Source: the human T2T-CHM13v2.0 reference genome, Homo sapiens. Taken from it: a stretch of DNA of 64,000 bases. The notes below the pieces were generated by a model. That model was given only the letters and a program-made list of their open reading frames with translations, searched no databases and had not been told where the DNA came from. Below, in pieces: positions 46,087-46,625 of the stretch; within the stretch, counting starts at the first letter, position 1; every line of letters begins with the position of its first letter. The stretch is taken from NCBI RefSeq assembly GCF_009914755.1, contig NC_060926.1. The stretch is one strand, 5' to 3'. The position numbers and the translations under genes are program-made.

Positions 46087-46272
46087 ATGGAAATTACCTA
46101 CCACACCACACTTGTGGGAACTGCTGTCCTCACTCTTCTATTTGCAATAGGGTTATCCATGGTATCACCTTCTAACTTAAATATTGGACAGAGAGTTTCC
46201 ATTGCTGTCATGTTTTGCTTAATTAGTATCTTTATGGTAGGGATAATATTTACTGACAAAAAGGAAGCATGA
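46087..46272 (+). CDS. Intact 61-aa ERV-derived ORF with two hydrophobic segments (hypothetical)
   Basis: True ATG (cagATGG); LVGTAVLTLLFAIGLSMV and VSIAVMFCLISIFMVGIIF, charged tail DKKEA; stop overlaps the next ATG. Confidence 0.4.
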   Translation: MEITYHTTLVGTAVLTLLFAIGLSMVSPSNLNIGQRVSIAVMFCLISIFMVGIIFTDKKEA

Positions 46273-46625
46273 AAGTTTTACTGTCACTGAGTCTGCTAGG
46301 ACTTTTTATTGGGTTTAGTGATGAAGTTTTAAATGAAACATGCTGCTTTTGGATTAACACCTCTAATAAAGTAGAGGAAAATCTACAGGTACTTAAAAAT
46401 CAAATAAAAATTATTAACAGGCTCAGAGAAAATGCTGGCTTCAGCCCCGGGTGGCTACAATCCCTCTTTAATGAATTCTGGTCTTTATGGAATTGGTTAA
46501 CCCCTTTATTAAGCCCTCTCTTACTTATATGTCTTGTATTGATATTTGGACCCTTTATACTCAATACTGTAACTCGAATTGTTTCTTCTTGCCTAGAAGC
46601 AATCAAATGCCAAATGGTGCTGTAA
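46269..46625 (+). CDS. Intact 118-aa truncated retroviral Env TM-like ORF with signal-peptide-like N-terminus
   Basis: [17 protein letters not shown], then [12 protein letters not shown] (gamma-type CX6CC end), helical heptad, W-rich segment, membrane anchor [20 protein letters not shown], tail LEAIK. Confidence 0.6.
   Translation: [118 protein letters not shown]

What the first reader, a model, noticed from the sequence alone, without database searches (positions are those of the whole stretch)
46087..46625. Intact ATGA-coupled two-ORF membrane cassette encoding a signal peptide + Env-TM 'mini-Env'
Seen: two uninterrupted ATG-started ORFs overlapping at gcATGAaa (46269-46272). ORF-A (61 aa) has two hydrophobic helices and a charged tail, and its ATG directly follows a tttcag possible splice acceptor. 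ORF-B (118 aa) joins a signal-peptide-like N-terminus directly to [12 protein letters not shown], a heptad region, a W-rich segment, a membrane anchor and a short tail, with two N-glycosylation sequons (NET, NTS). Known: gammaretroviral Env TM runs fusion peptide, HR1/ISD, CX6CC, HR2, anchor; membrane-anchored HR2 peptides inhibit class I fusion (e.g. maC46 for HIV); AUGA overlaps support termination-reinitiation in some viruses. Inference: this ERV lineage may have reduced env to a surface-displayed HR2 that lacks SU, fusion peptide and HR1, acting as a dominant-negative inhibitor of related Envs or syncytins, co-expressed with a viroporin-like ORF-A. No expression evidence is visible and this copy has no upstream LTR.
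Basis: partly seen in the sequence, partly recalled or inferred. Interest (0 to 1): 0.8.

Follow-up and report, generated by a model that had tools for sequence, protein, structure and literature searches.

The report
Dead retrovirus fragment with chance-open frames
The two open reading frames are real, but they sit in a promoter-less, LINE-1-made copy of a defective ancient retrovirus and have stayed open by chance, so this is an ordinary genomic fossil and not a working gene.

Summary
ORF-A (46087-46272, 61 aa) and ORF-B (46269-46625, 118 aa) are uninterrupted and overlap at ATGA.

Full-length relatives elsewhere in the genome show that a 1.4-kb in-frame env deletion joined about 18 codons of the Env signal peptide to the last ~98 codons of a syncytin-2-like TM, starting just after the first Cys of CX6CC. 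The deletion is shared by at least 24 paralogues.

The functional reading fails:
- The window copy (45583-47370) is a 5'-truncated retrocopy of the viral RNA. It ends at the LTR poly(A) site, carries an A-rich tail and a 10-nt target-site duplication, and has no promoter.
- ORF-B is intact in only 2 of 23 copies, about what random decay predicts.
- Its dN/dS within the family (0.72) matches the out-of-frame controls (0.59, 0.74).
- ORF-A carries a stop at codon 31 in 23 of 24 paralogues. The window lost that stop by a private change.

Two by-products may deserve follow-up. The whole family looks LINE-1-amplified, like HERV-W pseudogenes. ORF-A-like 59-62-aa frames recur between pol and env across related ERV lineages.

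The parts
45567..45576 (+). Upstream copy of the 10-nt target-site duplication AAAATTAGAT, preceded by TTTTT/AAAA.
   Evidence: The same 10-mer lies at 47386-47395. Random segment pairs from the window share 10 nt or more in 24 of 19929 trials.
45583..46033 (+). 5'-truncated start of the retrocopy: the last ~450 nt of the family's non-coding internal sequence.
   Evidence: Homology to all paralogues begins at 45583. No Pfam hit in any + frame. The corresponding 3.6-kb stretch of L032 has no Pfam hit in six frames and is an abundant genomic repeat.
46034..46086 (+). Homologue of the pol-env intergenic stretch of full-env relatives. Ends in tttcag (46081-46086).
   Evidence: L047 and L046 match from 46034. 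Sequence read.
46087..46272 (+). ORF-A, 61 aa, with two hydrophobic segments. It is a re-opened pseudo-ORF.
   Evidence: Codon 31 is a stop in 23 of 24 paralogues but a Leu codon here. No Pfam or PDB match above noise.
46269..46322 (+). ORF-B codons 1-18, homologous to the Env start and signal peptide of full-env relatives.
   Evidence: the relatives read [17 protein letters not shown] followed by SU with CWVC. Hydrophobic residues 1-18.
46323..46328 (+). Junction of the 1.4-kb in-frame env deletion.
   Evidence: No GT..AG at the borders in the seven full-env copies shown, so this is not a splice product.
46329..46625 (+). ORF-B codons 21-118 plus stop: the TM C-terminal half (CC of CX6CC, short helix region, W-rich stretch, membrane anchor, shortened tail).
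   Evidence: TLV_coat 478-559 and syncytin-2 433-522. The stop at codon 119 is shared with 11 paralogues; 10 paralogues and 10 of 11 full-env-group copies carry a sense codon there. There is a private 3-nt in-frame deletion.
46626..46796 (+). Remnant of the Env cytoplasmic tail (same frame reads on to 46688) and the 3' untranslated part up to the LTR.
   Evidence: The 5' LTR matches of L045, L048 and L037 begin at 46797-46805.
46797..47370 (+). 3' LTR, U3-R only: TATA-like box at 47199-47204, ATTAAA at 47347-47352, ending at the poly(A) site. U5 is missing.
   Evidence: In 5' LTRs of paralogues the sequence continues past CTCCTTAAAAC into U5 and the PBS.
47371..47385 (+). A-rich tail (aaaacaaaacaaaac), a degenerate poly(A).
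47386..47395 (+). Downstream copy of the target-site duplication AAAATTAGAT.
47398..47689 (+). Later Alu-type insertion next to the tail. Not part of the ERV copy.
   Evidence: This stretch matches scattered places in many loci at 70-80% identity. The hub lists 47283-47699 as masked. The name 'Alu' is my recognition of the sequence, not a tool result.

Best explanation
Window 45583-47370 is a 5'-truncated, LINE-1-made retrocopy (processed pseudogene) of the RNA of a defective class I (gamma-like, HERV-FRD-type) endogenous retrovirus.

The source element had two defects. It had lost the stretch from capsid to integrase to a non-coding stuffer. It also carried a 1.4-kb in-frame env deletion that joins the Env signal peptide to the TM C-terminal half.

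ORF-B is that deleted env, and it has escaped disruption here by chance. ORF-A is a small frame from the pol-env interval that was already stopped at codon 31 in the family and was re-opened here by a private substitution.

The copy has no promoter of its own and lies in sense in an intron of lncRNA LOC105374690. It most likely makes no protein and has no function.

Shown: the homologies, the deletion, the copy statistics and the retrocopy hallmarks. Inferred: the absence of expression and function.
For: 1. Repeat family. At least 48 genomic matches to 46000-46760 (40 of 301 candidates scored). 18 paralogues span all of 46040-46700 at 81-90% identity. 24 carry the ORF-A / signal-peptide region.

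2. Deletion derivative of a full env.
- L040 has Gag_p30, zf-CCHC, RVT_1, RNase_H, rve, MLVIN_C and TLV_coat.
- In 6 of the 12 loci fetched as TM-only matches, most or all of 46086-46322 lies 1.4-1.8 kb upstream of the 46327 homologue; 2 more hold only part of it, and the other 4 lack it or are further deletion variants.
- Translations give the Env start, CWVC, and ...[14 protein letters not shown].
- The junction is in frame, with no splice signals.

3. Retrocopy hallmarks in the window.
- The copy ends 18 nt after ATTAAA.
- It has an A-rich tail.
- A 10-nt direct repeat lies at 45567 and 47386 (chance 24 of 19929).
- The target is a T-run/A-run site.

4. The same hallmarks across the family.
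- 4 of 4 full-length copies start at R and have 10-16-nt duplications.
- 14 of the 17 3' LTR ends that could be located stop at the poly(A) site.

5. Neutral decay of ORF-B.
- It is intact in 2 of 23 copies.
- There are 52 disruptions in 22 paralogues. The Poisson zero class is about 0.10, so about 2.4 intact copies are expected (arithmetic mine).
- dN/dS within the family is 0.72 [0.52-0.99], against 0.59 and 0.74 in the two wrong frames.
- Mean pairwise distance is 0.109 in ORF-B, 0.118 in the stuffer and 0.137 in the 3' UTR.
- A genome-wide protein search finds no further intact fused copy. Of 14 matches spanning the junction, only the window and L002 are ATG-started and stop-free.

6. ORF-A. 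There is a stop at codon 31 in 23 of 24 paralogues and frameshifts in 16 of 24. It is fully open only in the window and L023. The window peptide departs from nearly invariant positions.
Against: - ORF-B is intact and has a purine at -3.
- The deletion is exactly in frame and was so in the source element, which leaves room for a product at that time.
- ORF-B is slightly less diverged than the 3' UTR and the LTR (0.109 against 0.137 and 0.156), though not less than the non-coding stuffer (0.118).
- The within-family dN/dS test has little power for a short early phase of selection.
- No expression data, no primate orthologues and no SignalP run were available here.
- tttcag before ORF-A could in principle act as a cryptic acceptor within the host lncRNA intron.
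Confidence: 0.88

Rival explanations
1. Domesticated mini-Env. ORF-B at this locus is expressed as a surface-anchored TM stub that blocks fusion by related Envs or syncytins, with ORF-A co-translated through the ATGA overlap.
For: Both frames are open. The N-terminus is a true Env signal peptide and the rest is the post-CX6CC helix, anchor and tail of a syncytin-2-like TM. From my own knowledge, not tested here: membrane-anchored C-terminal TM peptides are known fusion inhibitors in other retroviruses.
Against: - There is no promoter, because this is a 5'-truncated retrocopy with only a U3-R 3' LTR.
- ORF-A's openness is private to this copy.
- ORF-B is intact at the rate expected from random decay, and dN/dS equals the wrong-frame controls.
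- There is a private one-codon deletion in the W-rich stretch.
- The first Cys of CX6CC is lost, leaving two unpaired Cys.
- No coding gene is annotated here (hub table).
Confidence: 0.03
2. The fused signal-peptide/TM ORF was functional only in the source provirus at the time of the burst, for example as an interfering or immunomodulatory product. All present copies, this one included, are dead retrocopies of it.
For: The deletion is in frame, and the hydrophobic N-terminus and ATG are widely kept (ATG in 14 of 24 paralogues; no stop in codons 1-19 in any of the 24). Disruptions differ from copy to copy, or recur at a few shared codon positions (28, 62, 74, 103) that are also hit in full-env copies, so the source ORF was probably open. 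At least two family members (L014, L020) have a 3' LTR that runs into U5, as a provirus would.
Against: An in-frame deletion has a one-in-three prior by chance. A non-autonomous element copied by LINE-1 needs no ORF. No selection signal was seen within the family. Half of the family shares a premature tail stop at codon 119.
Confidence: 0.08
3. ORF-A is the relic of a genuine small retroviral gene or regulatory upstream ORF. It would encode about 60 aa with two membrane helices, sit between pol and env, and be conserved across FRD-like ERV lineages. It is dead in this family and only accidentally open here.
For: - It lies between the pol stop and the env ATG in full-env relatives and ends 3 nt before that ATG.
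- Codon 31 is a sense codon in 5 of 6 full-env copies.
- A genome protein search returned 150 scored matches of 323 candidates. About 69 have no internal stop (my hand count), and identity runs down to 42-47% with 62-aa open frames.
- Three sequence types of 59-61 aa align without indels, with 12 invariant columns.
- Between-lineage dN/dS is 0.42, against 0.57 and 0.70 in the wrong frames.
Against: - The bootstrap intervals overlap ([0.24-0.69] against [0.30-1.08] and [0.36-1.34]).
- The library proteins are pre-selected for being open, and some may have been called under a TGA=Trp code.
- The top genome matches are ranked by score, which favours intact frames.
- There is no Pfam, PDB or Atlas relative.
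- T-rich sequence easily yields hydrophobic frames.
Confidence: 0.35

Closest known systems
Syncytin-2 / HERV-FRD Env (gamma-type Env, Pfam TLV_coat)
   Same: ORF-B residues 20-116 align to syncytin-2 433-522 (E 4.2e-18). A 540-aa open frame on contig 6, which I take to be that gene, matches at 48% identity. Full-env relatives carry the CXXC motif (CWVC) close to the N-terminus and ...QNRRGLD...CX6CC in TM. That syncytin-2 shares this layout is recalled, not tested.
   Different: ORF-B lacks all of SU, the furin site, the fusion peptide, HR1, the immunosuppressive region and the first Cys of CX6CC. Its cytoplasmic tail is cut short by a stop shared with half of the family. It is not under detectable constraint.
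HERV-W processed pseudogenes (LINE-1-mobilised ERV transcripts)
   Same: The criteria are quoted from PMC5016936 (passages read): 5' R-U5 and 3' U3-R LTRs, a poly(A) tail, a TT/AAAA site and a 5-15-bp duplication. The window copy shows U3-R, an A-rich tail and a 10-nt duplication at a T-run/A-run site. Full-length paralogues show R-U5 starts.
   Different: This is a different ERV group. Syncytin-1 matches ORF-B only at E 0.87-0.93. The PBS differs from a W-type one (tRNA assignment recalled, not tested). The mobilised RNA was itself a non-coding, env-deleted derivative.
Truncated Env-derived host factors (suppressyn, Fv4, Refrex-1); names recalled, no call
   Different: As I recall, those retain SU or receptor-binding parts, are expressed and are conserved. 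ORF-B retains only the TM tail, has no promoter and shows neutral decay.
HIV-1 vpu-env bicistronic arrangement (recalled, no call)
   Same: A small membrane ORF lies directly upstream of env on the same strand, as ORF-A does in the full-env relatives.
   Different: There is no sequence relation. ORF-A has two hydrophobic segments. Its expression and function are unknown, and it is broken in the window's family.

Membership tests
Gamma-type retroviral Env TM subunit (Pfam TLV_coat, C-terminal part) | Significant match to the TLV_coat profile or to a solved gamma-type TM | tested here: met
   TLV_coat 478-559 of 560, 51.3 bits against a cut-off of 22.5. Syncytin-2 E 4.2e-18.
Gamma-type retroviral Env TM subunit (Pfam TLV_coat, C-terminal part) | Complete CX6CC motif | tested here: not met
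   Only the CC remains. The deletion border lies after the first Cys codon of the full-env relatives.
Gamma-type retroviral Env TM subunit (Pfam TLV_coat, C-terminal part) | Fusion peptide, HR1 and immunosuppressive region | tested here: not met
   These are absent. The homologous 1.4 kb is present only in the full-env relatives. There is no TLV_coat match upstream of residue 21 in any frame of 45583-46800.
Gamma-type retroviral Env TM subunit (Pfam TLV_coat, C-terminal part) | Membrane anchor and cytoplasmic tail | tested here: met
   Hydrophobic residues 75-102. The tail is present but shortened by the stop at codon 119.
Secretory signal peptide | N-terminal positive residue, hydrophobic core and small residues at -3/-1; homology to a known Env leader | tested here: inconclusive
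   The hydrophobic core at residues 1-18 and the homology to the Env start of full-env relatives are met. No SignalP-type predictor was available, so cleavage in the fused context is untested.
LINE-1-made processed pseudogene of an ERV (criteria as quoted in PMC5016936) | 3' LTR is U3-R, ending at the poly(A) site | tested here: met
   It ends at 47370, 18 nt after ATTAAA, whereas the 5' LTRs of paralogues run on into U5 and the PBS.
LINE-1-made processed pseudogene of an ERV (criteria as quoted in PMC5016936) | Poly(A) tail | tested here: met
   A degenerate A-rich run lies at 47371-47385. Paralogues have A-rich or (CA)n tails at the same point.
LINE-1-made processed pseudogene of an ERV (criteria as quoted in PMC5016936) | Target-site duplication of 5-15 bp at a TT/AAAA-type site | tested here: met
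   AAAATTAGAT lies at 45567 and 47386, preceded by TTTTT. Chance is 24 of 19929.
LINE-1-made processed pseudogene of an ERV (criteria as quoted in PMC5016936) | 5' end at R, or 5' truncation | tested here: met
   The window copy is truncated at 45583. 4 of 4 full-length paralogues start at R.
Termination-reinitiation (ATGA) gene pair | Both cistrons translated from one mRNA, with coupling dependent on the overlap | not testable with these tools
   Only the ATGA overlap itself is seen. The upstream frame is broken in 23 of 24 paralogues.
Viroporin | Oligomeric membrane channel activity | not testable with these tools
   There are two hydrophobic segments only and no family match.
   No repeat library is on hand. 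The PBS reads TGGTGCATTGG..CGGGAA in paralogues. From memory this resembles a tRNA-Gly rather than a tRNA-Pro primer site; this was not tested.

The most novel reading that the evidence does not exclude
ORF-A marks a previously undescribed small retroviral gene or regulatory upstream ORF. It would encode about 60 aa with two membrane helices and lie between pol and env, a Vpu-like position. It would be conserved across several FRD-like class I ERV lineages of primates.

In addition, the window's family would be a second human ERV group amplified by LINE-1, although a 2017 review abstract calls HERV-W the sole such group.

Neither reading makes the window copy itself functional.
Probability: 0.3. 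Interest if true: 0.6.

Novelty: new member of a known kind. Interest (0 to 1): 0.3.

Why it matters
For the finding as posed, it matters little. This is one more decayed ERV fragment, and the intact frames should not be taken for a gene.

Three points may be of some use:
- The case shows how an apparently designed 'mini-Env' arises trivially: an in-frame deletion in a source element is copied many times, and a tenth of the copies stay open by chance.
- If the LINE-1 amplification of this non-W family is not already described, it widens a phenomenon said to be unique to HERV-W. It also means that most members are promoter-less, which is relevant to ERV expression studies.
- If the small pol-env ORF is real, class I ERVs had an accessory or regulatory ORF that has gone unnoticed.

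Tried and rejected
I repeated it with X at stops.
- ORF-A against Pfam and PDB gave only noise (SfLAP E 0.0086, below cut-off; no PDB hit).
- The Atlas search for an ORF-A-type protein gave a best score of 0.88, below the 0.9 lead threshold, with no family.
- Splicing as the origin of the env deletion was rejected: there is no GT..AG at the borders in the seven full-env copies shown.
- 'ORF-A is the end of pol' was rejected. In L040, MLVIN_C and the pol stop lie upstream in another frame. A stop precedes the ORF-A ATG by a few codons in all but one of the full-env copies where I could read that frame.
- 'The internal 3.6 kb is a diverged pol' was rejected: no Pfam hit in six frames of L032.
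- The family name could not be settled from three papers (passages read in PMC5753468, PMC1779541 and PMC4724089).
- The tRNA-Gly literature search gave nothing on HERVs.
- Further genome letters could not be fetched, so the distant ORF-A-like loci and more full-env copies were not examined.
- The Pavlicek 2002 paper is not held.
- No structure prediction or complex prediction was run. Neither would change the verdict.
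Full report
**1. The observation**

Both frames exist as described. ORF-A runs 46087-46272 (61 aa) and ORF-B runs 46269-46625 (118 aa). 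They overlap at ATGA, and tttcag directly precedes the first ATG.
- Hydropathy gives two hydrophobic segments in ORF-A (residues 7-29 and 33-58).
- In ORF-B it gives a hydrophobic N-terminus (1-18) and an anchor (75-102).
- ORF-B residues 21-105 match Pfam TLV_coat 478-559 of 560 (E 1e-13). Residues 20-116 match syncytin-2 433-522 (E 4.2e-18).
- ORF-A matches nothing above noise.
- No other + frame of 45583-46800 has any Env or other Pfam signal.

**2. It is a repeat**

A search of the window's own genome with 46000-46760 gave 48 matches from 40 scored candidates of 301. About 20 of them are near full length, at 82-90% identity.
- Homology of the window to every paralogue begins sharply at 45583 and ends in the LTR near 47306-47389.
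- A full-length paralogue (L032) matches nowhere else in the 64 kb.
- Many further genomic copies match only from 46327 onward, which is exactly where the Env homology of ORF-B begins.

**3. What ORF-B is**

I fetched 12 of those TM-only loci with 8 kb of upstream flank.
- In 6 of them the homologue of most or all of 46086-46322 lies 1.4-1.8 kb upstream of the homologue of 46327. Two more hold only part of it. The rest lack it or are further deletion variants.
- One such copy, L040, carries Gag_p30, zf-CCHC, RVT_1, RNase_H, Integrase_H2C2, rve, MLVIN_C and TLV_coat 338-559, so it is a complete class I provirus.
- In these copies the stretch homologous to the ORF-B start reads as the start of Env: a hydrophobic leader, then SU with a CWVC motif a few dozen residues in.
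- The TM of these copies reads ...[31 protein letters not shown]....

The window's family therefore carries an in-frame deletion that joins about codon 18 of the Env leader to the residue after the first Cys of CX6CC. The borders show no GT..AG, so this is a deletion and not a spliced form.

The fusion is ancestral to the family. All 24 paralogues that cover the region have the same junction and the same hydrophobic N-terminus.

**4. What the family is**

Its full-length members (L031-L036) share about 6.2 kb of internal sequence with one another. With the full-env copies they share only four parts: the leader and 5' gag part, a short stretch, the pol-env interval, and the env 3' end with the LTR.
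- The 3.6 kb in between has no Pfam match in any of six frames.
- It is itself an abundant genomic repeat (109 matches from 40 scored of 4631 candidates).
- The window's 45583-46033 is the tail of this stuffer.
- The PBS in paralogues reads TGGTGCATTGG..CGGGAA. From memory that resembles the 3' end of a tRNA-Gly. I did not test this, and I could not name the Repbase/Dfam family.
- By Env, the closest known relative is syncytin-2 / HERV-FRD.

**5. How the copy got here**

The window's LTR starts at 46797. It has a TATA-like box at 47199-47204 and ATTAAA at 47347-47352, and it stops at 47370. The 5' LTRs of paralogues continue from that point into about 110 nt of U5 and the PBS.
- After 47370 comes an A-rich run and then AAAATTAGAT.
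- The same 10-mer lies just upstream of 45583, after a T-run.
- Random segment pairs of the window share 10 nt or more in 24 of 19929 trials.
- An Alu-type element then follows, with a third, imperfect copy of the motif after it.

These are the hallmarks listed for LINE-1-processed HERV-W pseudogenes: U3-R, a poly(A) tail, a TT/AAAA site, a 5-15-bp duplication and 5' truncation (PMC5016936, passages read).

The same holds for the rest of the family:
- 4 of 4 full-length copies start 23-25 nt after the TATA-like box, at the start of R, and are flanked by duplications of 10-16 nt.
- I could locate 17 3' LTR ends with a motif. Of these, 14 (the window included) stop at the poly(A) site with A-rich or (CA)n tails, and 3 (L014, L020, L028) run on into U5.
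- In 10 further loci the motif was not found.

So the window copy is a promoter-less retrocopy of an RNA and not an integrated provirus. This explains the missing upstream LTR.

**6. Are the frames kept open by selection? ORF-A**

- Codon 31 is a stop in 23 of 24 paralogues, and 16 of 24 also have frameshifts.
- Only the window (a Leu codon at position 31) and L023 (a different sense codon) are fully open.
- In the full-env copies codon 31 is a sense codon in 5 of 6, and the frame ends two codons earlier, 3 nt before the env ATG.
- The family's source therefore already had a broken ORF-A, and the window re-opened it by a private change.
- The window peptide also departs from several otherwise nearly invariant positions.

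**7. Are the frames kept open by selection? ORF-B**

- Of 23 copies with both halves, 2 are intact (the window and L002).
- The 22 paralogues carry 52 disruptions: lost start, stops and frameshifts. A few adjacent indels may be alignment artefacts.
- That gives a Poisson zero class near 0.10, so about 2.4 intact copies are expected (arithmetic mine).
- A genome-wide protein search with ORF-B (150 scored of 1196 candidates) found 14 matches spanning the junction. All are copies already examined, and only the window and L002 are ATG-started and stop-free.
- The window has a private one-codon deletion in the W-rich stretch: 33 of the 35 other copies carry the extra 3 nt.
- Its stop at codon 119 is shared with 11 paralogues. 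Ten paralogues and 10 of the 11 full-env-group copies have a sense codon there, and the frame then reads on for 21 more codons.

**8. Substitution pattern**

I used Nei-Gojobori dN/dS over all pairs, with the two wrong frames as controls. Uncorrected transition bias pulls every frame below 1.

| Comparison | Correct frame | Wrong frames |
|---|---|---|
| ORF-B TM part, within the family | 0.72 [0.52-0.99] | 0.59, 0.74 |
| ORF-B TM part, family against full-env copies | 0.47 [0.33-0.69] | 0.76, 0.71 |
| ORF-A, within the family | 0.80 | 0.53, 0.51 |
| ORF-A, between lineages | 0.42 [0.24-0.69] | 0.57, 0.70 (intervals overlap) |

The within-family ORF-B figure shows no constraint. The family-against-full-env figure is the trace of selection while env was still viral.

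Mean pairwise distance within the family is 0.118 in the stuffer, 0.121 in the ORF-A region, 0.109 in ORF-B, 0.137 in the 3' UTR and 0.156 in the LTR. At a neutral rate of about 2e-9 per site per year (recalled), half of 0.11-0.12 puts the burst at roughly 25-30 Myr. This is a rough inference.

**9. Verdict on mechanism**

The most likely state is no function. The element is an intronic, sense-oriented, promoter-less retrocopy whose two frames are chance survivors (confidence 0.88).

A product of the fused ORF in the source provirus at the time of the burst cannot be excluded (0.08).

**10. By-products**

(a) LINE-1 amplification of a non-W ERV group.
- The abstract of PMC5537654 calls HERV-W the sole HERV group mobilised by L1 (passages read).
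- My searches listed no paper on another such group. However, most subscription literature is not in the library, and Pavlicek 2002 could not be read.

(b) ORF-A-like frames.
- The ORF-A of a full-env copy finds 150 scored matches of 323 candidates in the genome. About 69 have no internal stop (my hand count), including a set at 42-47% identity with 62-aa open frames.
- The large protein library holds 28 relatives, 27 of 51-73 aa and one of 90, all unnamed or 'hypothetical'.
- Three sequence types align without indels.
- Searches for a described small ORF between pol and env in class I ERVs found nothing relevant.
- Caveats: library proteins are pre-selected for openness, and some may stem from a TGA=Trp gene call. 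The context of the distant matches is also unseen, because no more genome letters could be fetched.

Supplements of the cited papers were not consulted. They may list family assignments or PBS types that bear on the naming.

Noticed in passing
L032, L033, L034, L036 (full-length paralogues); L002-L028 3' ends: The whole env-deleted family looks LINE-1-amplified. 4 of 4 full-length copies have R-U5 starts and 10-16-nt target duplications. 14 of the 17 3' ends that could be located stop at the poly(A) site with A-rich tails, and 3 run into U5 like proviruses. A 2017 review abstract calls HERV-W the sole HERV group mobilised by L1.
   Followed up: partly
window 46087-46272; L040:6260-6439; genome places listed: ORF-A-like frames of 59-62 aa with two hydrophobic segments recur between the pol stop and the env ATG in related ERV lineages. 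There are 150 scored genomic matches, about 69 without an internal stop, and identity runs down to 42-47%. The protein library holds 28 unnamed predicted proteins.
   Followed up: partly
L032:2300-5926, of which window 45583-46033 is the tail: In this family, 3.6 kb of internal sequence replaces the capsid-to-integrase region. It has no Pfam match in six frames, yet it is a very abundant genomic repeat (4631 first-look candidates). Its origin is unknown.
   Followed up: partly
L032:571-590, L034, L036, L048 (5' LTR ends): The primer-binding site reads TGGTGCATTGG..CGGGAA. From memory this looks complementary to a tRNA-Gly 3' end, an unusual primer for a human ERV group. Not tested.
   Followed up: no
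window 47386-47397 and 47685-47700: The Alu-type element at 47398-47689 sits inside or beside the retrocopy's target-site duplication and is itself flanked by imperfect copies of the same motif (aaaattagatga / aaaaattacatca). This suggests two successive LINE-1-type insertions at one A-rich site.
   Followed up: partly
window 45042-45446, minus strand: A 134-aa ATG ORF lies just upstream of the retrocopy on the opposite strand. It was not examined and is probably part of another old repeat.
   Followed up: no
window 45583-47283: The 1.7-kb ERV fragment does not appear among the repeat-masked stretches listed by the hub, although much shorter stretches are listed. It is apparently unmasked in NCBI's file despite having dozens of paralogues.
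   Followed up: no
window 47307-47339: The window's LTR carries an AT-rich insertion of about 30 nt (ttaatttttaaaacaaaatttaaaattttt) that is absent from the four paralogous LTRs aligned.
   Followed up: no
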